IMG/VR virus record: IMGVR_UViG_2534681658_000022
Direction: 5' to 3' (one strand)
DNA length: 38,034 bases
Source of the DNA: a virus
Taxonomy: Duplodnaviria > Heunggongvirae > Uroviricota > Caudoviricetes
Part shown: piece after piece, positions 698-38,034 of the stretch
How positions within the stretch are numbered: the stretch's first letter is position 1
Layout of the letters: each line of letters begins with the position of its first letter
Program-made: the position numbers and the translations under genes
Notes under the pieces: generated by a model
Database searches by the model: none
Seen by the model: the letters and a program-made list of their open reading frames with translations, nothing else
Told to the model about the DNA's origin: nothing

Positions 698-1060
698 GGG
701 GCTGATTCTGGATTCGACGGGATTTGCGAAACCCAAGGTGCATGCCGAGGGGCGGTTGGCCTCGTAAAAAGCCGCAAAAAATAGTCGCAAACGACGAAAA
801 CTACGCTTTAGCAGCTTAATAACCTGCTTAGAGCCCTCTCTCCCTAGCCTCCGCTCTTAGGACGGGGATCAAGAGAGGTCAAACCCAAAAGAGATCGCGT
901 GGAAGCCCTGCCTGGGGTTGAAGCGTTAAAACTTAATCAGGCTAGTTTGTTAGTGGCGTGTCCGTCCGCAGCTGGCAAGCGAATGTAAAGACTGACTAAG
1001 CATGTAGTACCGAGGATGTAGGAATTTCGGACGCGGGTTCAACTCCCGCCAGCTCCACCA
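698..1060 (+). ncRNA. ssrA: tmRNA (SsrA, transfer-messenger RNA)
   Basis: 363 nt starting GGGGCTGATTCTGGATTCGACGGG and ending GGTTCAACTCCCGCCAGCTCCACCA (tRNA-like 3' end with CCA). Internal tag frame at 781-813, GCAAACGACGAAAACTACGCTTTAGCAGCTTAA, encodes ANDENYALAA-stop. Confidence 0.93.
1016..1060. repeat. attL core: 45-bp direct repeat (3' end of ssrA), identical copy at 36244-36288
   Basis: ATGTAGGAATTTCGGACGCGGGTTCAACTCCCGCCAGCTCCACCA occurs twice in the window and brackets the phage gene set. Confidence 0.85.
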
Positions 1061-1103: not shown

Positions 1104-1183
1104 GGTAGTGGCGGCAAAATGGCGACAAACTTTTGCGTCTATCTTGCCTGTCGCCATCTTGAAATCATGCAAAGAGGTTTCAC

Positions 1184-1666
1184 ATGGAAGAACTTCACTT
1201 TGTTTACATCAATGCAAATGGTCGTATCGGTGTTCACTCTATACAGGGCATCAGTTATAGCGAAAATCATATACAGGGCATTTGTAAGAACACCGATCGA
1301 ATAAAAACCTTCCGAAAAGACCGCATTCTTAAACAGTACGATTCACCAGAACAAGCCATTCAGGAATGCGCGTCATTCCTCCCCGAAAACTACTCACATC
1401 TCACTAAGCAGTCTGGTCCGAAAAAAAATACATTCGATGTGTGTTTCACCGGATTTAAGAAAGCAGATAAAGAAAGATTGGTTGATAAGGCGAATGAACA
1501 AGGATTAACGGTAAGAACCTCTGTAACCCAAAGCCTTCAGATGCTCTGTTGCGGTTACAATGCAGGCCCATCAAAAGTATCGGCAGCCAGGATGAAAGGC
1601 ACAATCATCATAGATGAGCCTGGCTTTATACATTTTCTTGAAACGGGTGAGATCCCAGATGAATAA
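1184..1666 (+). CDS. Hypothetical cargo protein with WYL-like N-terminal segment and BRCT-like C-terminal domain
   Basis: 160-aa ORF with AGAGG 7 nt upstream of the ATG. N-terminus has a QGICKNTDRIKTFRKDRI segment resembling the conserved WYL-domain core. C-terminus (FDVCFTGF...KERLVDKANEQGLTV...AGPSKVSAARMKGTIIIDE) resembles the BRCT domain of NAD-dependent DNA ligase. Domain calls are by eye. Confidence 0.6.
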   Translation: MEELHFVYINANGRIGVHSIQGISYSENHIQGICKNTDRIKTFRKDRILKQYDSPEQAIQECASFLPENYSHLTKQSGPKKNTFDVCFTGFKKADKERLVDKANEQGLTVRTSVTQSLQMLCCGYNAGPSKVSAARMKGTIIIDEPGFIHFLETGEIPDE

Positions 1667-22873: not shown

Positions 22874-23545
22874 TTAAAAACCAAGCTCATCTCTGATTCT
22901 TGGGAATTTTTTCATTACTCGAATATCAGTTAATAAATGCCAACGCCAAAAAACAGAAAATGGATATGATACATTACACATTGGCTTTAGCTTATTCTTG
23001 GCCTCTTGGATTTCTTGTTCTGTGCTTCGATCACTGACAAGTTTCATTCTCCAACCAGTAAAGTAAAACAATTCATCTTGTAACTTCTCTGAGAGATTTG
23101 CTCTTGTAATGCCCCTCAACCCCGTACTCGAAGAGTTAAAACACTTATCTAATAATTTGACTGTATTTAAAACCTTTCTACTTGGTCTTTTTCTTCTTGG
23201 GTATACTTGAACACCACTCGTTATAGCGTTCCCTGCGAGATGAACAATCTCACTGAAAACATCAACATCACTCTTTGTGCAATCAAGTAAGTTTTCAAAA
23301 GAATCACTTTTAATACTATTGCATCGACTGCAAGCTAAAAATAGATTGTTCCAATCATATTTGAGCTCATCAAGATCACGATGTGGAATAAAATGTTCTA
23401 TCTCTGGATCCATAAGATTACCTTGCTCACAGAGATAACATTTTCCATGAAATATTTCGTCTAAAGCATTTACAACTGTTTTATGGTTATATACTTTTCT
23501 CGACAAGCATTGAGGTGCAGGAATATTTCTAGTAACATTAAACAT
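22874..23545 (-). CDS. HNH endonuclease, Septu PtuB-like
   Basis: 223 aa with an N-terminal HNH motif (HGKCYLCE...EIEHFIPH...NLFLACSRCNSIK). AT-rich. Overlaps the upstream ATPase gene by 8 nt. Confidence 0.75.
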   Translation of the reverse strand: MFNVTRNIPAPQCLSRKVYNHKTVVNALDEIFHGKCYLCEQGNLMDPEIEHFIPHRDLDELKYDWNNLFLACSRCNSIKSDSFENLLDCTKSDVDVFSEIVHLAGNAITSGVQVYPRRKRPSRKVLNTVKLLDKCFNSSSTGLRGITRANLSEKLQDELFYFTGWRMKLVSDRSTEQEIQEAKNKLKPMCNVSYPFSVFWRWHLLTDIRVMKKFPRIRDELGF

Positions 23546-24776
23546 CGTCTTCCCTTTCGCTATAATCTAAATATTTACTCTTAGCGATCATAAAAGCTGC
23601 TTTTGAACTTTTATCAAGAAAATCAATACTCTTCTGTAACGTTTTCATTATAGAATGAAATCTATCGTCGAAGACATTATTTTCTACTAAAGTCATTAAT
23701 TCTTTAACTAATGCATTTAGCTTATCCGAAGATACATCCTCACCCAACAATCCCTTTATAATTGCTGTGTAAGAATACAATGATAAATCACCCATCTGAT
23801 CCAATGTTGAGAGATTAAATATAATCGCATCAGATACTGATTGGATTACGAAAGGTGAATGCGTAGAAACAATAAATTGTATTTGCGGAAAAGATGATGA
23901 AAAAAAACTAAATACTTTCTTTTGCAATGTTACATGAAGATGAGCATCAATTTCATCAATAAGTACTATCCCTGTCATATCATGTTTTCTGATTTTATCA
24001 AGCTCTGCTTTTATCAATAAATCAGTATAAATAGAAAGAATTGATGAAAAACCAGATGACAACTTATCAAGTCCAAATGGTTCCTTATTATTTTGTAAAA
24101 GATAGATTTTCAACTTGTCGAGATCAAAATCCATTCTAATACTTTCATCTTCAAAAAGTTCTTTTAAGTCATCATTAATACTCTCAATAATATCAAAGGC
24201 TCTTTTATAGTCATCATCCTTGCCCACTCCCTTACTGACTAAAGCATAATTCCACAATGTAACTATGTATCTTTCAAAATACATACCAGCATCAATCTTA
24301 GAATTATTTCTCTGTGCGTTCCCATACTCAGTTAACAACAAATCGAGGCTGCTAATCTTACCATCATTTTTTATTTTCGCTTCTCGAATAGCAGGAAATA
24401 ATCTTATAATTGATTTTTTCTTTTTTGCAGCAACCCTGAAATCAACCACATCATTAAAAGTAATATCAAAGCTCTCAAATTCTTTTAATTTTTCTTTCAG
24501 TCTCTCAATTTCTTCGTTTAAATAGCTATAATTACCATCCCCTCTATTTGAATACTTTAAGTTTTCTTGACTGGAATTCAATTCCTTTTGTAGCTGCTCC
24601 TTAGTATAAGGATCATGTGAATTAATCGATTTTTCTATAAACTCATAAATATTCTCGATCAACCTAGTTTTACCAGAGCCATTATCTCCTGATATTATTA
24701 GATTCTTACCATCAAGATTTAATGTGTAAGGCTCATCGTTCCTTTTAAAGAAGATAGTTTCGATGAAATGTCGCAT
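23538..24776 (-). CDS. ABC/AAA-type ATPase, Septu PtuA-like
   Basis: Walker A GDNGSGKT, Walker B/D-loop VLIDEIDAHLH, and STHSP motif. Start set at the ATG preceded by GGGAGG; the tracked ORF starts at 24791. Confidence 0.75.
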   Translation of the reverse strand: MRHFIETIFFKRNDEPYTLNLDGKNLIISGDNGSGKTRLIENIYEFIEKSINSHDPYTKEQLQKELNSSQENLKYSNRGDGNYSYLNEEIERLKEKLKEFESFDITFNDVVDFRVAAKKKKSIIRLFPAIREAKIKNDGKISSLDLLLTEYGNAQRNNSKIDAGMYFERYIVTLWNYALVSKGVGKDDDYKRAFDIIESINDDLKELFEDESIRMDFDLDKLKIYLLQNNKEPFGLDKLSSGFSSILSIYTDLLIKAELDKIRKHDMTGIVLIDEIDAHLHVTLQKKVFSFFSSSFPQIQFIVSTHSPFVIQSVSDAIIFNLSTLDQMGDLSLYSYTAIIKGLLGEDVSSDKLNALVKELMTLVENNVFDDRFHSIMKTLQKSIDFLDKSSKAAFMIAKSKYLDYSEREDDV

Positions 24777-24866
24777 TATTCCTCCCGTCATACTTAATAG
24801 CTTTTAGATAATATGACATTACATGTTAGATTTCATCCGTTTTGTGAACATATCCACTGCCGCGCG

Positions 24867-25228: not shown

Positions 25229-25882
25229 ATGAATAAATACAAACTTTTCGCACAGCTATCAAGATATTCATTTGAAGCGCAGATTGATGATTTCGAAAAA
25301 TATATCCTAGGAGCAGGCGGCCAAAACAGAGTTGACTTATCGGAATTAAAAAAAGCATATGAAGATGAAAAAAAGAATGCTCCTGACGATTATATTAATT
25401 ACTTAGAAGACTATTATTCAGAGCAATATGATTTCTTAGTTAACATACAACCAAATATTTTTAATAAATCTGCTTTGGTATCTTTATACTCATGCTTAGA
25501 GCACAACCTAAACGACTATTGCAATATATGTCAAAGGATTGTAAACACCAATATATCAGTAACCGATTTTAATGGTGATGGCATCCACAAAGCAAAAAGA
25601 TATTTAACAAAATTAATGGATATAAACTTTGGCCTGTCACAAGAGTGGCGATTCATGACAGAGTTTAACAAAGTAAGGAATTGCATAGTTCATGCTAATG
25701 GAGACATTAAAAAAATGAGCACAGCTGTAGCCTTAAAAGATATCATTGATAAAACACCTACTCTTTCATTAAACAATGAAAATAATATAATAATCTCCTT
25801 AAATTATTTAAAAGATACTATCACAAAAATTAGAAAACTCTTTCAATGGTTATATACACATCTGGATCAATCATCGAAATGA
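25229..25882 (+). CDS. Hypothetical protein with HEPN-type RNxxxH motif (candidate abortive-infection effector)
   Basis: 217-aa AT-rich ORF with TATAAT at 25203-25208 upstream. Motif RNCIVH at residues about 151-156. No recognisable phage function. Confidence 0.55.
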   Translation: MNKYKLFAQLSRYSFEAQIDDFEKYILGAGGQNRVDLSELKKAYEDEKKNAPDDYINYLEDYYSEQYDFLVNIQPNIFNKSALVSLYSCLEHNLNDYCNICQRIVNTNISVTDFNGDGIHKAKRYLTKLMDINFGLSQEWRFMTEFNKVRNCIVHANGDIKKMSTAVALKDIIDKTPTLSLNNENNIIISLNYLKDTITKIRKLFQWLYTHLDQSSK

Positions 25883-26134: not shown

Positions 26135-27001
26135 TTAGATGGCTTTGCTTCGATATTCAATTTCTAAAATCGCCTTTGTCATTGCCGCAATAGTTATAGC
26201 TTCTACCATAGTCAATTCAGGCTTGTTCAAGCTTCCGTGTCCAGCAGTAGGTAATTTGTTACGTAAATCATAAATATCTTTAACAGCATCAATAAGATTC
26301 TTAGGTAATTTTGACATTTTTTCGAACTGTTTAAAAAAACCACCCAATGACTCATTTGCCACATTCGGGTTTTGAGTGATTTCCTTAGCCATAGTTTCTA
26401 AAACATTAGAGGCTGCGTGCAGTGCACCTGCCGGATCATTATTATCCAAGCAATTATTCATTCTATCTATTTGCTGAACGATATTTGGGTGCAATCTCTT
26501 TAAGTAATCACTAGCCAATTCTTCATTGAAATTTTTGACACTTTCAAAAACATCGCAATCTAAATAAAATTTAGGATTGACTGACATCCATGTATATTTC
26601 CAATCATTTTCTAAATTATCTTTTTCCGCAATACGCCTGCCAGTGTCCTGATCTATCTCATCAACATATTTACACATATAATCGGCGTAGTAGTGTAAAT
26701 ATCTAAATGATATTTCTGGGCAAAAATTACTAACTGATGCAAGGCCGCCATATTCTTTTGTAGTAACTGTAGGGACTTCTTCATCACATAAAGATGAGAA
26801 AGTGGTTCTTTCCCAAAATTCGCCCAACTCTTTTTCTTTCCTAGTTGCCATACCAGCTATCATATTGATGCTTGAGAGCAAAACTACACTCTGATAGTAT
26901 CGAGGACATCTGTATGAACTAGCATATGGGCATATTGATGATGCTTTACGATTAATACGCTCTTTTTCCCACCAATTTTTATCAGGAATAATTCTTTGCA
27001 T
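26135..27001 (-). CDS. Hypothetical protein, Cys-rich N-terminus (uncharacterised hotspot cargo)
   Basis: 288-aa AT-rich ORF, convergent with the 217-aa gene. N-terminal cysteines (CPY...C.RYY...CPE...CKY); C-terminal region with LRNKLPTAGHG. No recognised family; the true start may be a downstream Met. Confidence 0.55.
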   Translation of the reverse strand: MQRIIPDKNWWEKERINRKASSICPYASSYRCPRYYQSVVLLSSINMIAGMATRKEKELGEFWERTTFSSLCDEEVPTVTTKEYGGLASVSNFCPEISFRYLHYYADYMCKYVDEIDQDTGRRIAEKDNLENDWKYTWMSVNPKFYLDCDVFESVKNFNEELASDYLKRLHPNIVQQIDRMNNCLDNNDPAGALHAASNVLETMAKEITQNPNVANESLGGFFKQFEKMSKLPKNLIDAVKDIYDLRNKLPTAGHGSLNKPELTMVEAITIAAMTKAILEIEYRSKAI

Positions 27002-27489
27002 AATTTAGCTACTATCTCACGAGTGAATGAATGTTTAGCCTTCTGCACAGTTTATCAGTTCCGGCATGCCTACTGCTACCCCACTGATTCAACTTCAAGT
27101 TATGAGTTAAAGCGATTCGGTTTCGCTAGATGACACACTAGTGTTAATTTATGGATAAAAATTTATCACTTAAAATTAACTAATGCCTGTTGCGACCAAA
27201 AGTGTGCTGGAATATTATTTTCGTCTGGCCTATTATCAAGCTAATTATCCAAATTAGAGTTACTCTCATTCATCAGCAACAAATAAATACACCTGTTCAC
27301 TTTCTCAAAGTGTTCCTGTTTTATTTTTAAAGCAAACAACGCCGCCTATTCGTCCGAATGTACAACAAACATCAGGTTCTGACACAAAGTGGACGATCAC
27401 TTATCAAAATGACCGCCCACCTTACACCTCATTTCACTCGTTGCCCAAACTCCCCCCAACAGGATAAATCCTCTTGGGGGCAACGTTTC

Positions 27490-27723
27490 TTAATGCAGCC
27501 AGCTGTCGTCTTCCCACACCTTCTGCATAATTTTCAGCACTTGTTTTCTTTCTTCGTCCAGTTGCAGTCCGGTCAGTTCCACACCGTTAGAGCTACCTTT
27601 GCGGATACGAATTACCGTTTTGGGATACAGGGGGCGCAGATTGCGGTAAAGCTCGGATTCAAGGGCATCCAGGGTAGACTGGCTAATCTTCTGCTCTTTA
27701 TCGATCATTATTTCAATGCGCAT
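27490..27723 (-). CDS. DinI-family protein (Tum C-terminal-like)
   Basis: 77-aa product MRIEIMIDKEQKISQSTLDALESELYRNL...VWEDDSWLH matches the DinI fold signature. GAGGTGA RBS. Hairpin terminator just downstream, about 27455-27485. Confidence 0.75.
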   Translation of the reverse strand: MRIEIMIDKEQKISQSTLDALESELYRNLRPLYPKTVIRIRKGSSNGVELTGLQLDEERKQVLKIMQKVWEDDSWLH

Positions 27724-27733
27724 AAAAGTCACC

Positions 27734-27922
27734 TCAGCTGATGACATCCATTGAGCGGTTGTATTCGTGGGTTCTGATTTTTGCCATGAGTTCATCAGTC
27801 AATTCAGAAACCCACTGCAGAGCCAGCCCCTTCTCTTCATCACTACACTCACTAGCCGCTACAAGCTTAAGAAAAAAATCAATGCGCTGGAGCTTCAAAG
27901 ACTCCAAAAAATAGTCCTGCAT
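27734..27922 (-). CDS. Small SOS-regulated protein (possible Tum N-terminal-like antirepressor segment)
   Basis: 62-aa ORF starting MQDYFLESL with GGAGGAAAG RBS, directly downstream of a LexA box; its end overlaps the dinI-like start in another frame. Confidence 0.45.
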   Translation of the reverse strand: MQDYFLESLKLQRIDFFLKLVAASECSDEEKGLALQWVSELTDELMAKIRTHEYNRSMDVIS

Positions 27923-32293: not shown

Positions 32294-32542
32294 ATGTTGA
32301 ACCCGGTTGAAAGAGAGCGTATAGAGCAACTTGAAAACGAGATCTCCAGTCTTCGCGATGAGGTTGCTGTTCAACGAATTCTTGTTTCAGGTCTGATCCA
32401 CTCCTTATTTCGAACTGACTCAGCAAATCAATCAGCATTTTTTGAGCTCCTCCGCGAAGAATTAAACAAACTTCCTTTAGGTTCGGTTAAACAACAAGAA
32501 TTCACTCATCTGATACAGACACTGATAGATCGTTACCGATAA
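32294..32542 (+). CDS. Hypothetical coiled-coil protein (opposite strand within the early region)
   Basis: 82-aa ORF with AAGGAA 7 nt upstream of the ATG and an AT-rich promoter-like region at about 32225-32290. Preferred over the low-complexity minus-strand ORF 32175-32438. Confidence 0.45.
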   Translation: MLNPVERERIEQLENEISSLRDEVAVQRILVSGLIHSLFRTDSANQSAFFELLREELNKLPLGSVKQQEFTHLIQTLIDRYR

Positions 32543-33837: not shown

Positions 33838-34470
33838 ATGTTAAACATCAGAATGGGTTCCGATACGGGAGGTAAGGCAGCTATTGAGAGGCTGCTTGAG
33901 GCTTATGGATTCACAACTAAGCAGGCATTAAGCGAGCACCTGAATGTCTCAAAAAGTACTATGGCAAACAGAGTGTTACGTGACAGTTTTCCTGCTGACT
34001 GGATAATTCAGTGTGCACTAGAAACCGGTGTTTCGTTACTTTGGTTAGCCACAGGACAGGGAAGCATGAAAGAAGGATACGAGCCTGAGAAAAGATCTCA
34101 TAACGAGAACAAACAAGCAATTAAACCGTTATCCAAACTCATAACTCCATCTATTCCTAAAGGAACCTTGGAAAATGGACAACTCAGTATTGATGAAGAG
34201 ATTTTCCTAGACCACAGCATATTACCTGCAGATTATGAAGAATCGATGTTCTTAGAAACCCCTACTGATTGTTATCTCATCGATAAATCAGTTAAACAAG
34301 TCAGCAATGGATTCTGGCTTATCAATATTGATGGAATGATTATTATTGCAAAAATCATGCGGATTCCCGGCAATAAGATTGTAGTAAATCAAGATGAAGC
34401 ATCTTTCGAGTGCTCTGCTGATGATGTGGAAGTTATTGGGCGTGCAGTCAAAGTAATAAAGAGTATCTAA
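33838..34470 (+). CDS. cI: CI-type immunity repressor
   Basis: 210 aa with N-terminal HTH region and C-terminal domain; GGAG RBS; divergent from apl and immediately upstream of int, as for 186 cI. Confidence 0.8.
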   Translation: MLNIRMGSDTGGKAAIERLLEAYGFTTKQALSEHLNVSKSTMANRVLRDSFPADWIIQCALETGVSLLWLATGQGSMKEGYEPEKRSHNENKQAIKPLSKLITPSIPKGTLENGQLSIDEEIFLDHSILPADYEESMFLETPTDCYLIDKSVKQVSNGFWLINIDGMIIIAKIMRIPGNKIVVNQDEASFECSADDVEVIGRAVKVIKSI

Positions 34471-34472
34471 AC

Positions 34473-35489
34473 ATGACTGTCAGAAAACAGCCAAACGGTA
34501 AATGGTTGTGCGAGTGCTATCCCAATGGACGCAATGGCAAGCGCGTGCGTAAGCAATTTGCTACGAAAGGCGAAGCCATTGCTTTTGAAAGCTTCACAAT
34601 GGAAGAAGTGAACAAAAAACCATGGCTGGGGGAAAAGGAAGATCGGCGACACCTATCAGAATTAATTGAGCAGTGGTATTCCCTGTATGGTCAAACACTC
34701 GCAGACCCCAAGCGCCTCATGGCGAAACTTAGAATTATCTGTAATGGTCTAGGCGATCCCATCGCTTCAGAACTGACAGCCGGTGACTTTACGAAATACC
34801 GCGAAGCACGGTTAAAAGGTGAAGTACGAAATGAAGATGGCACGTTTATGTCGCCCGTTAAGCCCCGCACGGTAAACCTTGAACAGCGCAATCTATCATC
34901 TGTTTTTGGTACACTGAAAAAGTTGGGCCACTGGTCAGCCTCCAACCCGCTTGCTGGGCTGCCAACATTTAAAATTGCTGAGAGTGAATTGGCGTTCCTG
35001 ACCCCGGAAGAAATTAAACGTCTGCTGGATGCCTGCGCCGATTCTCAAAGCTCCAGCCTGCTTTTGATTGCAAAAATATGCCTGGCCACCGGCGCACGCT
35101 GGAGCGAAGCCGAAAACCTGCAGAGTCATCAGGTATCAAAATACCGTATCACTTATACCAAGACCAAAGGCAAGAAAAACCGAACTGTGCCTATTTCTAA
35201 GGATTTATATGAAGAACTGCCTAAGAATAGGGGGAAGTTATTCACCCCATGCAGAAAAGCCTTTGAGCGTGCAGTAAAGCGGGCTGGTATCGATCTGCCA
35301 GAGGGTCAATGTACTCACGTTCTGCGTCATACATTCGCTAGCCATTTTATGATGAATGGTGGAAACATATTGGTTTTGCGGGATATCCTAGGACATTCAG
35401 ATATAAAAATGACCATGGTCTATGCACACTTCGCCCCAGACCATTTAGAAGATGCCGTAACTAAAAATCCTTTATTTAATTTGAGGTAA
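34473..35489 (+). CDS. int: Tyrosine integrase (P2/186 type)
   Basis: 338 aa with the conserved R...HxLRH...Y catalytic region (VLRHTFASH...MTMVYAH); follows cI. Confidence 0.92.
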   Translation: MTVRKQPNGKWLCECYPNGRNGKRVRKQFATKGEAIAFESFTMEEVNKKPWLGEKEDRRHLSELIEQWYSLYGQTLADPKRLMAKLRIICNGLGDPIASELTAGDFTKYREARLKGEVRNEDGTFMSPVKPRTVNLEQRNLSSVFGTLKKLGHWSASNPLAGLPTFKIAESELAFLTPEEIKRLLDACADSQSSSLLLIAKICLATGARWSEAENLQSHQVSKYRITYTKTKGKKNRTVPISKDLYEELPKNRGKLFTPCRKAFERAVKRAGIDLPEGQCTHVLRHTFASHFMMNGGNILVLRDILGHSDIKMTMVYAHFAPDHLEDAVTKNPLFNLR

Positions 35490-35499
35490 GTAGTAATTT

Positions 35500-36168
35500 A
35501 TGAATAGCGAACTAGAGTTACTTATAAAAATATTATTCCCTTCCCTATCTGCCATTATATCCTTATTAGGGCTTAAAACAGGGTGGACTTATAAAAAAGA
35601 CAAACTATTCACATCACGTAAAAACATTAGCGAATTTTCATATCAGATGTATAAAAGCAGTGAAGATCCGACCTTCAAAAAACTGGCGGAAGATTACGGC
35701 ATTGCTGCATTAACCAAAGATAACACATTGACAAAAAAACAAAGATTAATATTACTCAACACAACAAACCCCGTTAGCGATATAGATAATTATTCCAAAT
35801 GTCAAAGTCTAATTTCCATTACCACCCATAAAGAAATATTCGCATGGAATAAAAAAAGATATAAATACAGCATATATAGAAAATTAATAAAAATCATAAC
35901 AACTCTAATTTACTTCATGAGCAGTCTCATCGTAGCACTTCCTTTCAGTTATTCTGTTGTAGTAAGTGCTAAGATGATGGAGAAGATAAACCATCTAACT
36001 ACTTGGCAATACTTTGGTTTAAGCAGCTATTTTGTGGTATCGGGAGTAGCAATATGCTTTATCTGCCTAGATAAGCTCTCCAAGATTAAGATCGCCGAGA
36101 GATTAATCGTTTCGAATAGGCGTTTAGGCGACAAATGCAGTGGCGGCACTTTGGCGGCAGAAAGTTAA
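35500..36168 (+). CDS. Hypothetical membrane protein between int and attR (candidate lysogenic-conversion cargo)
   Basis: 222-aa very AT-rich ORF starting 11 nt after the int stop on the same strand. N-terminal TM helix, Lys-rich cytoplasmic region, then two C-terminal TM helices. Confidence 0.55.
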   Translation: MNSELELLIKILFPSLSAIISLLGLKTGWTYKKDKLFTSRKNISEFSYQMYKSSEDPTFKKLAEDYGIAALTKDNTLTKKQRLILLNTTNPVSDIDNYSKCQSLISITTHKEIFAWNKKRYKYSIYRKLIKIITTLIYFMSSLIVALPFSYSVVVSAKMMEKINHLTTWQYFGLSSYFVVSGVAICFICLDKLSKIKIAERLIVSNRRLGDKCSGGTLAAES

Positions 36169-36243
36169 AAACCCATAAAACGGACAGACACCGTATAAAT
36201 CTAACCAACTGAAAATCAAAGCAAATCATTGTTTTTACAGACA

Positions 36244-36288
36244 TTGAAATGCTATGTAGGAATTTCGGACGCGGGTTCAACTCCCGCC
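36244..36288. repeat. attR core: second copy of the 45-bp ssrA 3'-end repeat
   Basis: Identical to 1016-1060. Confidence 0.85.
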
Positions 36289-36322
36289 AGCTCCACCACT
36301 TTTTAGTTGTTTGAAGTTCAAT

Positions 36323-36356
36323 GAAGTCTACTAAGCCCACACAGCACAAGCTCTGC
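36323..36356 (+). terminator. Rho-independent terminator downstream of the displaced ssrA 3' end
   Basis: Imperfect hairpin AAGCCCACACAGC / GCTCTGCGGGCTT followed by TTTTTT. Confidence 0.4.
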
Positions 36357-36463
36357 GGGCTTTTTTACGTCTATTGTCGTCCAGTGAGAATTGCTGAGAA
36401 CTACGAGTTATGGCACCCTGAATGGGACCCACTAAGAAGGGTCCAAAAACCGAGGGTCCCAAA

Positions 36464-37249
36464 ATGGCAAAAATCGCTAAGAAGCTCACTGACACTGAAA
36501 TCAAAAGCACCAAGCCAGCCGATAAAGAAATCAACTTGTTTGACGGTGATGGTCTGATTCTACGAATCGCTCCTTTGGCGAAAGGAGGCAAGAAAAATTG
36601 GTATTTCAGGTATGCAGTACCAGTGAGCAAGAAAAGAACCAAAATGAGCCTTGGGACATATCCTCACCTTACCCTTGCAAGAGCCAGAGCCTTACGTGAT
36701 GAATATCTCTCCTTTCTGGCAAATGGTGTTGATCCCCAAATCCATAACAACGATAAGGCGAAGGCATTAAAGAGTGCTACTGAGCACACTCTCCAAGCCG
36801 TAGCGCGGAAATGGTTAGATGAGAAGGTAAAGACATCAGGTATCTCACAAGACCATGCAGCAGACATCTGGCGCAGCTTAGAGAGAAATGTCTTTCCCGG
36901 TCTGGGTAATGTCCCTATCAATGAGATCCGACCTAAGCTCTTAAAACAACACCTTGATCCTATTGAGCAACGAGGCGTATTGGAAACTCTACGCCGTATC
37001 ATTTCACGTCTGAATGAAATCTTCCGGTGGGCAGCTACTGAAGAACTTATTGAGTTCAACCCGGCTGACAACCTTGGTCAAAGATTCAGTAAACCAAAAA
37101 AGCAAAATATGCCTGCCCTTCCCCCAAGCGAATTGCCAAGGTTTATGGAATCTTTGACGAATGCGTCAATCCGGTTGGAAACACGTATGCTAATTGAATG
37201 GCAATTGTTGACATGGGTTCGTCCGGGTGAAGCCGTTCGCGCAAGGTGA
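36464..37249 (+). pseudogene. intA: P4-type (IntA-like) integrase, 3'-truncated by IS insertion
   Basis: N-terminus (TDTEIKSTKPADKEINLFDGDGLILRIAP...) and internal segment (ESLTNASIRLETRMLIEWQLLTWVRPGEAVRAR) track the CP4-57 IntA family. The frame ends in a TGA created at the IS629 left end. Confidence 0.8.
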
Positions 37250-37300
37250 ACCGCCCCGGGAATCCTGGAGACTAAACTTCCTGAGAAAGAGGTAAACAGG

Positions 37301-37627
37301 ATGACTAAAAATACTCGTTTTTCCCCCGAAGTCCGTCAACGGGCAGTCCGTATGGTTCTGGAAAGTCAGAGCGAATATGACTCACAATGGGCGACAATTT
37401 GTTCCATTGCTCCAAAGATTGGCTGTACGCCGGAGACTCTGCGTGTCTGGGTTCGCCAGCATGAGCGGGATACCGGGGGCGGTGATGGAGGGCTCACCAC
37501 CGCTGAACGTCAGCGTCTGAAAGAGCTGGAACGTGAAAATCGTGAACTGCGCCGCAGTAACGATATCCTTCGCCAGGCTTCCGCTTATTTTGCGAAGGCG
37601 GAGTTCGACCGCCTCTGGAAAAAATGA
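37301..37627 (+). CDS. IS3-family transposase OrfA (IS629-type)
   Basis: 108-aa product [41 protein letters not shown]... recognised as IS629/IS1203 OrfA. Confidence 0.9.
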
Positions 37628-38034
37628 TGCCACTGCTGGATAAGCTGCGTGAGCAGTACGGGGTCGGACCGCTATGCAGCGAACTGCATATTGCCCCGTC
37701 AACGTATTACCACTGTCAGCAACAGCGACATCATCCGGATAAACGCAGTGCCCGTGCGCAGCGCGATGACTGGCTGAAGAAAGAGATACAGCGCGTATAC
37801 GATGAAAATCACAAGGTATACGGTGTGCGTAAAGTCTGGCGTCAGTTGTTACGGGAAGGTATCAGAGTGGCCAGATGCACTGTGGCACGTCTCATGGCGG
37901 TTATGGGACTTGCCGGTGTTCTCCGGGGTAAAAAGGTCCGTACGACCATCAGCCGGAAAGCCGTTGCCGCAGGCGACCGCGTAAACCGTCAGTTCGTGGC
38001 AGAACGACCTGACCAGCTGTGGGTGGCTGATTTT
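37624..38034 (+). CDS. IS3-family transposase OrfB (IS629-type), 5' partial
   Basis: Open frame from ATG 37624 to the window end ([30 protein letters not shown]...), overlapping the orfA stop. Confidence 0.85.

What the first reader, a model, noticed from the sequence alone, without database searches (positions are those of the whole stretch)
35500..36168. Membrane protein immediately downstream of int, before attR
A 222-aa AT-rich ORF starts 11 nt after the integrase stop on the same strand, so it is likely co-transcribed with cI-int in the lysogen. It has an N-terminal TM helix, a Lys-rich cytoplasmic middle and two C-terminal TM helices. P2 has no gene between int and the attachment site as far as I recall, and lysogen-expressed genes beside int are often exclusion or defence functions.
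Basis: partly seen in the sequence, partly recalled or inferred. Interest (0 to 1): 0.6.

Follow-up and report, generated by a model that had tools for sequence, protein, structure and literature searches.

The report
Uncharacterised membrane cargo gene beside prophage integrase
A real, conserved but uncharacterised three-helix membrane protein sits as swappable cargo between the integrase and the attachment site of a P2/186-like E. coli prophage, a slot that in sister phages is empty or holds anti-phage genes, so it is a good but unproven candidate for a new single-gene phage-exclusion protein.

Summary
ORF 35500..36168 (+, 222 aa) starts at the 11th nt after the int stop. It has three hydrophobic helices and a basic ~95-aa middle domain, and lies inside the prophage: an exact 45-bp ssrA-derived core is repeated at 1016-1060 (attL) and 36254-36298 (attR). 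The prophage is 186/Fels-2-like and inserted in ssrA.

The gene is cargo in a variable slot bounded by the int stop and a pair of TGGCGRCA repeats, probably Int arm sites. Among 46 loci with near-identical integrases the slot is empty in 15, as it is in Fels-2. The others hold one of at least five unrelated genes, including a known dCTP-deaminase defence gene. A 2026 paper already lists int-att as a minor P2 defence hotspot.

The protein matches no Pfam, NCBIfam, PADLOC or PDB entry; its only match is phrog_21256, function unknown. It is under strong purifying selection. Relatives occur as lone genes in two other prophage types, in an integron-like cassette array and as chromosomal singletons.

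The best reading is a lysogen-expressed, stand-alone inner-membrane anti-phage protein. Function and expression are inferred, not shown. It is a new cargo family in a known kind of locus; interest is moderate.

The parts
35500..36168 (+). The finding: a 222-aa predicted inner-membrane protein (WP_001083625.1, 'hypothetical'; phrog_21256). TM1 is about 5-27, the conserved basic cytoplasmic domain about 28-127, TM2 about 128-156, a short periplasmic loop follows, TM3 is about 170-198, and there is a basic C-terminal tail.
35490..36140 (+). Cargo module. This sequence is absent from 'empty-slot' relatives. It is bounded on the left by the int stop codon and on the right by the conserved attP-arm repeats.
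34473..35489 (+). Tyrosine integrase (Int_N + Phage_integrase), 92-95% identical between phages whose cargo and cI differ.
33838..34470 (+). 186-type CI repressor (Phage_CI_repr + Phage_CI_C). It is the first gene of the presumed lysogenic cI-int-cargo transcript.
36141..36159 (+). Two TGGCGGCA repeats with 11-bp spacing, conserved in all relatives immediately after the cargo, or after the int stop when the slot is empty. They are inferred to be arm-type Int-binding sites. They encode the last residues of the ORF.
36254..36298 (+). attR core: a 45-bp duplicate of the ssrA 3' end.
36348..36372 (+). Terminator-like hairpin plus T-run, presumably the original ssrA terminator. It is the first terminator-like site downstream of cI-int-cargo in the lysogen.
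698..1060 (+). Intact tmRNA gene (ssrA). Its last 45 bp (1016-1060) are the attL core.
1109..1156 (.). Three TGGCGRCA repeats on the other attP arm (1109 +, 1120 +, 1149 -).

Best explanation
The ORF is a moron: an accessory gene inserted exactly between the int stop codon and the arm-type Int-binding repeats of a 186/Fels-2-like, ssrA-integrating prophage. It has no promoter or terminator of its own. It is most likely transcribed in the lysogen as the third gene of the cI-int message, which would run through attR to the old ssrA terminator. The product is a stand-alone inner-membrane protein with the topology N-out, TM1, a ~95-aa conserved basic cytoplasmic domain, TM2, a short loop, TM3, C-in. 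I judge its most likely role to be protecting the lysogen against other phages at the membrane. The conserved cytoplasmic domain has no invariant catalytic-type residues, so it would bind a partner: an incoming phage protein or the cytoplasmic face of a host membrane protein used for DNA entry. The three helices would then either block genome entry (superinfection exclusion, slightly favoured) or perturb the membrane once triggered (abortive infection). Shown here: the gene's location, the slot's variability, its membrane architecture, purifying selection, and repeated independent capture by mobile elements. Inferred: expression, topology, any anti-phage activity and its mechanism.
For: (1) Location. 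The ORF lies inside the att sites, 10 nt after int, with no terminator or promoter between them. (2) Slot variability. Integrases at least 89% identical are followed by 152 bp of nothing (15 loci), by this family (2), or by unrelated single genes of 343-364 aa (8), 395-408 aa (12) or 490-514 aa (6). One locus carries a dCTP deaminase that matches PADLOC PDLC02373 at 2e-146. Cartapus and RE2010 share cI-int and att at 90% identity but carry a 401-aa 'RES' gene in the slot. Fels-2 has an empty slot. (3) Published work lists int-att as a minor defence hotspot holding 3% of P2 systems (PMC13586616). (4) In Siccibacter the gene shares the slot with a 577-aa deaminase-family gene. (5) The family acts alone and is mobile. 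There is no conserved neighbour. Relatives are opposite-strand morons between the capsid and portal genes of P22-portal-type prophages. One lies in another prophage beside a SNIPE nuclease and ABC-3C-type genes. One lies in an integron-like cassette array. (6) Int is 92-95% identical between phages, whereas cargo alleles are 48-67% and cI 52-59% identical, so the cargo diverges and is exchanged like an immunity module. (7) Purifying selection is strong and conservation is highest in the soluble domain. (8) The same prophage carries Septu in the classical GpQ-GpA hotspot, so it is a defence carrier.
Against: There is no homology to any known defence or exclusion protein: PADLOC best E is 0.007-0.012, which is noise, and hhalign against P22 SieA and SieB gives probability below 1%. 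No informative fold match was found. PHROGs lists the family as unknown function. Several relatives are chromosomal singletons beside metabolic or transport genes, for example in Klebsiella quasipneumoniae, Janthinobacterium and a Desulfobacteraceae bin, which is not typical defence context. Most other occupants of the slot are also uncharacterised, so guilt by location rests on one validated family plus a literature statement. The periplasmic loops are tiny, which fits poorly with a classical injection blocker acting in the periplasm. Expression was not measured. The Shine-Dalgarno spacing of 13 nt is long.
Confidence: 0.45

Rival explanations
1. The gene is a lysogenic-conversion factor unrelated to phage defence. 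In this reading it is a membrane protein that alters host envelope physiology, stress tolerance, transport or colonisation and so benefits the lysogen directly.
For: Genes next to int-att in other temperate phages include envelope-modifying membrane proteins, for example P22 gtrABC beside attP/int. Several family members are stable chromosomal singletons next to transporters or metabolic genes: a TrkA-type K+ channel, PntAB, and a LysR/monooxygenase pair. The K. quasipneumoniae copy has ameliorated GC (45%) and 245 member sequences, which suggests long residence.
Against: There is no similarity to GtrA, Oac or any transporter or enzyme family. No catalytic-type invariant residues are present. 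The gene has no conserved partner genes. The other occupants of the slot look like conflict genes: a dCTP deaminase, a gene annotated as RES-like by its depositors, and a ~500-aa protein whose sequence suggests to me, untested, a possible PD-(D/E)xK-type nuclease motif.
Confidence: 0.2
2. The gene serves the phage's own life cycle. Examples would be a membrane-anchored modulator of integration/excision, of induction, or of lysis timing (holin/antiholin-like).
For: It is translationally close-packed with int and overlaps the putative Int arm sites. It has three TM helices, as class I holins do.
Against: The function is dispensable. Fifteen of 46 sister phages and Fels-2 lack any gene here, and others carry unrelated genes. 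It is not in the lysis cassette. At 222 aa with a 95-aa soluble domain it is unlike holins. Relatives occur outside phages. The overlap with the arm repeats involves only a non-conserved tail.
Confidence: 0.08
3. The gene is a selfish or near-neutral passenger, or an addiction-type membrane toxin, that hitch-hikes in a recombination-prone spot without benefit to phage or host.
For: It is AT-rich foreign DNA (34.7% GC) in a recombination hotspot. It is rare: 31 of 5426 complete E. coli genomes and 76 clusters in 1.8 billion representatives. It is absent from 50,697 deposited phage genomes.
Against: Strong purifying selection operates across genera, and the architecture is conserved down to ~17% identity. 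Independent capture by at least three phage types and an integron-like array argues for a selectable function. No antitoxin-like partner is present.
Confidence: 0.12

Closest known systems
Cargo of the integrase-att defence hotspot of P2-like prophages (Nucleic Acids Res 2026, PMC13586616), in the wider frame of P2/P4 hotspots (Rousset et al. 2022, PMC9122126)
   Same: The position is the same: between int and the att site of a P2-family prophage. The slot is hypervariable between near-identical integrases, and a known defence gene (dCTP deaminase) occupies it in a sister phage.
   Different: This protein is not recognised by any defence HMM and has not been tested. The classical P2 hotspot (GpQ-GpA) is elsewhere in this prophage and carries Septu.
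Prophage superinfection-exclusion membrane proteins (P22 SieA; also T4 Imm and HK97 gp15, from my own knowledge)
   Same: It is a small, prophage-encoded, stand-alone predicted inner-membrane protein that is presumably expressed in the lysogen.
   Different: There is no sequence or profile similarity to SieA or SieB. The conserved part faces the cytoplasm and the periplasmic loops are minimal. It has no promoter of its own, whereas sieA has one.
Transmembrane abortive-infection effectors (RexB, CBASS/Pycsar TM effectors, SLATT-type proteins; from my own knowledge and PMC9122126)
   Same: A soluble cytoplasmic domain is fused to two or three TM helices in one short polypeptide, found in conflict-gene contexts.
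   Different: It has no partner sensor or signal-generating gene. It gives no hit to PADLOC or Pfam models of these effectors. No toxicity data exist.
phrog_21256
   Same: It gives a full-length match, 1-222 of 222, E 6.6e-155, so it is a member.
   Different: The PHROG has no assigned function, so membership says nothing about mechanism.

Membership tests
P2-like int-att accessory/defence hotspot cargo | Lies between the integrase gene and the att site, inside the prophage boundaries | tested here: met
   int 34473-35489; ORF 35500-36168; attR core 36254-36298; attL core 1016-1060
P2-like int-att accessory/defence hotspot cargo | Content of the locus varies between closely related phages, including an empty state | tested here: met
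   46 loci with integrases at least 89% identical: 15 empty, at least five unrelated gene families, and Fels-2 empty
P2-like int-att accessory/defence hotspot cargo | Recognised as a known defence system | tested here: not met
   PADLOC v2 gives only noise-level hits (E 0.007 and 0.012)
P2-like int-att accessory/defence hotspot cargo | Confers phage resistance when expressed | not testable with these tools
   Needs plaque or liquid infection assays
Superinfection exclusion proteins (P22 SieA / SieB) | Sequence or profile homology | tested here: not met
   hhalign of family profile A5 against SieA and SieB: probability 0.4% and 0.8%
Superinfection exclusion proteins (P22 SieA / SieB) | Inner-membrane protein expressed from the prophage | tested here: inconclusive
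   Three hydrophobic helices and positive-inside bias are predicted. Expression is inferred only from the absence of a terminator.
Superinfection exclusion proteins (P22 SieA / SieB) | Blocks DNA entry of superinfecting phage without killing the cell | not testable with these tools
   Needs injection and survival assays
TM abortive-infection effectors (SLATT, RexB, Cap/Pyc TM effectors) | Match to family HMMs | tested here: not met
   No Pfam or PADLOC hit for the query or for 62 family members
TM abortive-infection effectors (SLATT, RexB, Cap/Pyc TM effectors) | Genetic linkage to a sensor or signal-producing partner | tested here: not met
   No conserved neighbour across 12 different contexts
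Holins (class I, 3 TM) | Small (under ~150 aa), encoded in the lysis cassette next to the endolysin | tested here: not met
   The protein is 222 aa with a 95-aa soluble domain and is located beside int. I did not annotate the lysis genes in the window; by synteny with Fels-2, whose endolysin and holin sit among the late genes, they should lie far from int.
Gtr / Oac serotype-conversion membrane proteins next to int-att | Homology to GtrA/B/C or acyltransferase families | tested here: not met
phrog_21256 | Full-length HMM match | tested here: met
   E 6.6e-155, residues 1-222 of 222; function unknown

The most novel reading that the evidence does not exclude
The ORF founds a previously unrecognised family of single-protein, membrane-embedded anti-phage (exclusion or abortive-infection) factors. 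Its cytoplasmic recognition domain would have a new fold, and the family would be spread as a one-gene module by P2/186-like phages, P22-portal-type prophages, other prophages and integron cassettes across Proteobacteria.
Probability: 0.4. Interest if true: 0.6.

Novelty: new member of a known kind. Interest (0 to 1): 0.42.

Why it matters
If the gene protects the lysogen, it adds a compact 0.65-kb single-gene membrane defence or exclusion family with no detectable relatives among known systems. Its mode of sensing would therefore be new. The locus also gives a clean natural experiment. Near-identical integrases are followed either by nothing or by one of at least five interchangeable genes, with junctions defined to the base (int stop on one side, TGGCGRCA repeats on the other). 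Three of the other occupants, of about 350, 400 and 500 aa, are also uncharacterised and could be tested in parallel. If the gene has no phage phenotype, the finding is an ordinary moron of unknown function.

Tried and rejected
Searches that gave nothing useful:
- Pfam, NCBIfam and PADLOC scans of the ORF gave only noise. These were Man-6-P receptor at E 0.039, Cas2_II at 0.007 and 1TM-TIR at 0.012 with 13 bits.
- A Pfam scan of 62 family members found nothing.
- tblastn against 50,697 phage records found no match, and blastn against plasmids found none.
- A PDB sequence-profile search had a best E of 0.16.
- The afdb50 library was unavailable.
- Literature searches for the accession, the PHROG id, and P2-like/ssrA/moron/exclusion terms found nothing on this protein.

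Ideas I rejected:
- I first thought the helix-helix-helix-hairpin of residues 57-116 might be a winged helix. The fold searches do not support it, so I dropped the idea.
- hhalign against P22 SieA and SieB was negative.
- Longer family members (P0055, P0060 and others) offered no informative domain fusions. Their extensions look like mis-called starts or low-complexity tails.
- I checked whether the gene belongs to the downstream CP4-57-like island and rejected that, because it lies inside the att repeats and the downstream islands differ between strains.
- Fels-2's known exclusion of P22 gene-17 mutants (annotation note) cannot be due to this slot, because the slot is empty in Fels-2.

Full report
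1. What is there

The window is an E. coli chromosomal segment. Positions 35400-36320 are 100% identical to ETEC strains 120899 and ETEC-2265, where the ORF is WP_001083625.1, 'hypothetical protein'. It carries a P2-family prophage of the 186/Fels-2 type. The late genes resemble those of P2. The control region is 186-like, with CI (Phage_CI_repr + Phage_CI_C), CII/CP76, a Fil remnant and Apl/Rha-like genes.

The prophage is inserted in ssrA. An intact tmRNA gene lies at 698-1060. Its last 45 bp recur exactly at 36254-36298, with none expected by chance. These two copies are the attL and attR cores.

ORF 35500..36168 (+, 222 aa) therefore lies inside the prophage, between int (34473-35489) and attR. 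Its ATG is the 11th base after the int stop. Beyond attR come a CP4-57-type integrase remnant and an IS element, which make up a separate island.

2. The ORF is a real gene for a membrane protein

Hydropathy gives three hydrophobic helices, at about residues 5-27, 128-160 and 170-198. The segment between TM1 and TM2 has 20 K+R against 10 D+E, and the C-terminal tail is also basic. By the positive-inside rule this gives N-out, cytoplasmic domain, C-in.

AlphaFold2 with a 38-sequence alignment gave mean pLDDT 78 and pTM 0.62, and it reproduced these helices. The soluble part consists of four helices and a beta-hairpin. The last 11 residues are disordered.

Homologues at 47-84% identity exist in E. 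coli, Siccibacter, Cronobacter and Klebsiella. A profile search of 1.8 billion representatives found 76 clusters. Nearly all are 200-230 aa with the same layout, and named members come from Desulfomicrobium, Photobacterium, Janthinobacterium and other genera.

Conservation is highest in the cytoplasmic domain. Invariant positions across both branches are F46, G67, A70, L86, R127 and P148, with no set of catalytic-type residues.

Synonymous sites are saturated (pS about 0.8), while pN is 0.19-0.36. The one unsaturated pair gives dN/dS 0.07. The gene is therefore under strong purifying selection.

3. It is cargo in a precisely bounded, hypervariable slot

Phages Cartapus and RE2010 share cI-int and the att arm at about 90% identity but carry a 401-aa gene in this position, annotated as RES-like. 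Klebsiella phage ST437-OXA245phi4.1 carries a 516-aa gene there.

I fetched 80 IMG/VR loci whose integrase is at least 89% identical to this one, and measured the distance from the int stop to the att core. In the 46 loci where the core was present, the slot contents were as follows:
- 15 loci: empty, with only 152 bp between int and att
- 12 loci: a 395-408-aa protein
- 8 loci: a 343-364-aa multi-TM protein
- 6 loci: a 490-514-aa protein
- 2 loci: this family
- 1 locus: a 585-aa dCTP deaminase on the opposite strand
- 2 loci: IS-disrupted

The dCTP deaminase matches the PADLOC defence model PDLC02373 at E 2e-146. Fels-2 itself has the empty arrangement.

Alignments of the junctions show that all variants diverge right at the int stop codon. 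They re-converge at a tandem pair of TGGCGRCA octamers spaced 11 bp apart, at window positions 36141 and 36152. The same octamer occurs three times next to attL, at 1109, 1120 and 1149. The window has 13 matches against 3.3 expected by chance, and the only clusters are at the two att arms. I infer that these are arm-type Int-binding sites.

The ORF's last ~9 codons read into these repeats. This explains its non-conserved, disordered tail, which the 207-209-aa homologues lack.

Int is 92-95% identical between phages in which the cargo alleles are only 48-67% identical and CI only 52-59%. One locus, L015, has the identical cargo with a heteroimmune cI. The cargo is thus exchanged independently of the immunity region.

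4. Expression

The consensus scan found no sigma-70-like promoter on the + strand after 34346. It found no terminator-like site between cI and the hairpin at 36348, which lies beyond attR and is presumably the displaced ssrA terminator. The int-ORF junction RNA has no significant structure (z = -0.46). A GAGG lies 13 nt upstream of the ATG.

Co-transcription with cI-int in the lysogen is therefore the simplest reading. It is inferred, not shown.

5. What the protein resembles

It resembles nothing that has been characterised. Pfam, NCBIfam and PADLOC gave only noise. The one real match is phrog_21256, full length at E 6.6e-155, with function unknown.

6. Context of relatives

Close relatives (P0008, P0004, P0012) sit in the same cI-int-X slot in different genera, with different islands downstream. 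In Siccibacter the slot holds X plus a 577-aa deaminase-family gene, both upstream of the TGGCGRCA pair.

Distant relatives occur in several settings:
- as opposite-strand morons between the capsid/scaffold and portal genes of P22-portal-type prophages, seen twice
- as a gene in another prophage, next to a SNIPE/T5orf172 nuclease and DUF2326/CTD12/MC8 conflict-system genes
- as one ORF in a same-strand array of small genes separated by ~100-nt repeats, which looks like an integron cassette array; integron cassettes are reported to be rich in defence genes (10.1101/2024.07.02.601719)
- as chromosomal singletons beside unrelated genes

No neighbour is conserved, so the protein works alone. It has been captured independently by several kinds of mobile element.

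7. Interpretation

The most likely role is a lysogen-expressed, single-protein, inner-membrane factor that protects the lysogen from other phages. My confidence is about 0.45. I favour exclusion at entry slightly over abortive infection.

Four things support this:
- The slot is a published minor defence hotspot, holding 3% of P2 defence systems (PMC13586616).
- A validated defence family occupies the same slot in sister phages.
- The cargo is exchanged and diverges like an immunity module.
- The family has moron-like mobility.

Four things count against it:
- There is no homology to any known system.
- Several relatives sit in non-defence chromosomal contexts.
- The periplasmic loops are tiny.
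- No expression or phenotype data exist.

The rivals are lysogenic conversion unrelated to phages (0.2), a selfish or neutral passenger (0.12) and a phage life-cycle function (0.08). The last is unlikely because the gene is dispensable in sister phages.

8. Novelty and verdict

The locus type is already known: accessory or defence cargo beside int in P2-like prophages. The protein family is uncharacterised and has no detectable relatives among known systems. I rate it a new member of a known kind.

Interest is moderate. The finding is not surprising to a specialist. It is, however, a well-delimited and cheap-to-test candidate, and it comes with three equally uncharacterised sister cargos.

Noticed in passing
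window 22874-24791 (-): A Septu defence system lies in the classical P2 hotspot between portal gpQ and replication gene gpA. PtuA is the 417-aa ORF (PADLOC E 7e-122) and PtuB is the 223-aa HNH protein (E 2e-82).
   Followed up: partly
window 25229-25882 (+), 26135-27001 (-), 27358-27741 (+): There are further ORFs of unknown function in the same gpQ-gpA hotspot. The 217-aa one has a weak PADLOC 'RTasHEPN' hit (E 5e-5). The others have no hits.
   Followed up: partly
window 36141-36159 and 1109-1156: TGGCGRCA octamers cluster on both sides of the att cores: tandem with 11-bp spacing on the int side, and two direct plus one inverted on the other side. They are conserved in Fels-2, Cartapus, RE2010 and the Klebsiella and Cronobacter relatives, and are probably arm-type Int sites. 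They mark the exact right-hand junction of every cargo variant.
   Followed up: partly
window 1184-1666 (+): A 160-aa ORF lies just inside attL, on the other side of attP from the finding. The same gene in Cartapus is annotated 'putative exonuclease'. It has a weak PADLOC PDC-S48 hit (E 2e-7). It may be a second att-adjacent cargo gene.
   Followed up: no
window 36422-38034: A CP4-57-type integrase (Arm-DNA-bind_3 + Phage_int_M) lies directly after attR and is truncated at ~37249 by an insertion sequence. The ALIL frameshift pseudoknot is at 37582-37698. This is the remnant of a second ssrA-targeting island in tandem. Strain 120899 has an IS100 in the corresponding integrase instead.
   Followed up: partly
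L009/L010 6001-6624 (Klebsiella quasipneumoniae): A 50%-identical homologue sits alone between a FAD monooxygenase gene and a LysR regulator gene in a metabolic neighbourhood, with no prophage around it. Its GC is 45% and its cluster has 245 member sequences, so it looks like a long-resident, possibly domesticated copy.
   Followed up: partly
L109 1-9001 (metagenome contig): A distant family member (P0104) is one of about ten same-strand small ORFs (GFA, acetyltransferases, beta-lactamase-fold and others). They are separated by ~100-nt repeats, some ending in GTTAG-type motifs, and the whole looks like a chromosomal integron cassette array.
   Followed up: partly
L017, L027, L045 and related loci (int-att slot): Three other cargo families occupy the same slot: a 343-364-aa multi-TM protein, a 395-408-aa protein that depositors called RES-like, and a 490-514-aa protein. 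None has a Pfam or PADLOC hit. All are read in the same direction as int.
   Followed up: partly
window 32294-32542 (+): An 82-aa ORF lies on the strand opposite to the early operon, between the DUF5347 gene and the fil remnant. It is annotated hypothetical (WP_000934004.1), is present in some relatives (L006) and absent in others (L005), and has no family hits. It may be another small moron.
   Followed up: no
L107 28414-28725 (phage P22 gene 17): The P22 record notes that gene 17 'allows growth on phage Fels2 lysogen', so Fels-2-type prophages exclude P22. Fels-2 has an empty int-att slot, so that exclusion must map elsewhere.
   Followed up: no
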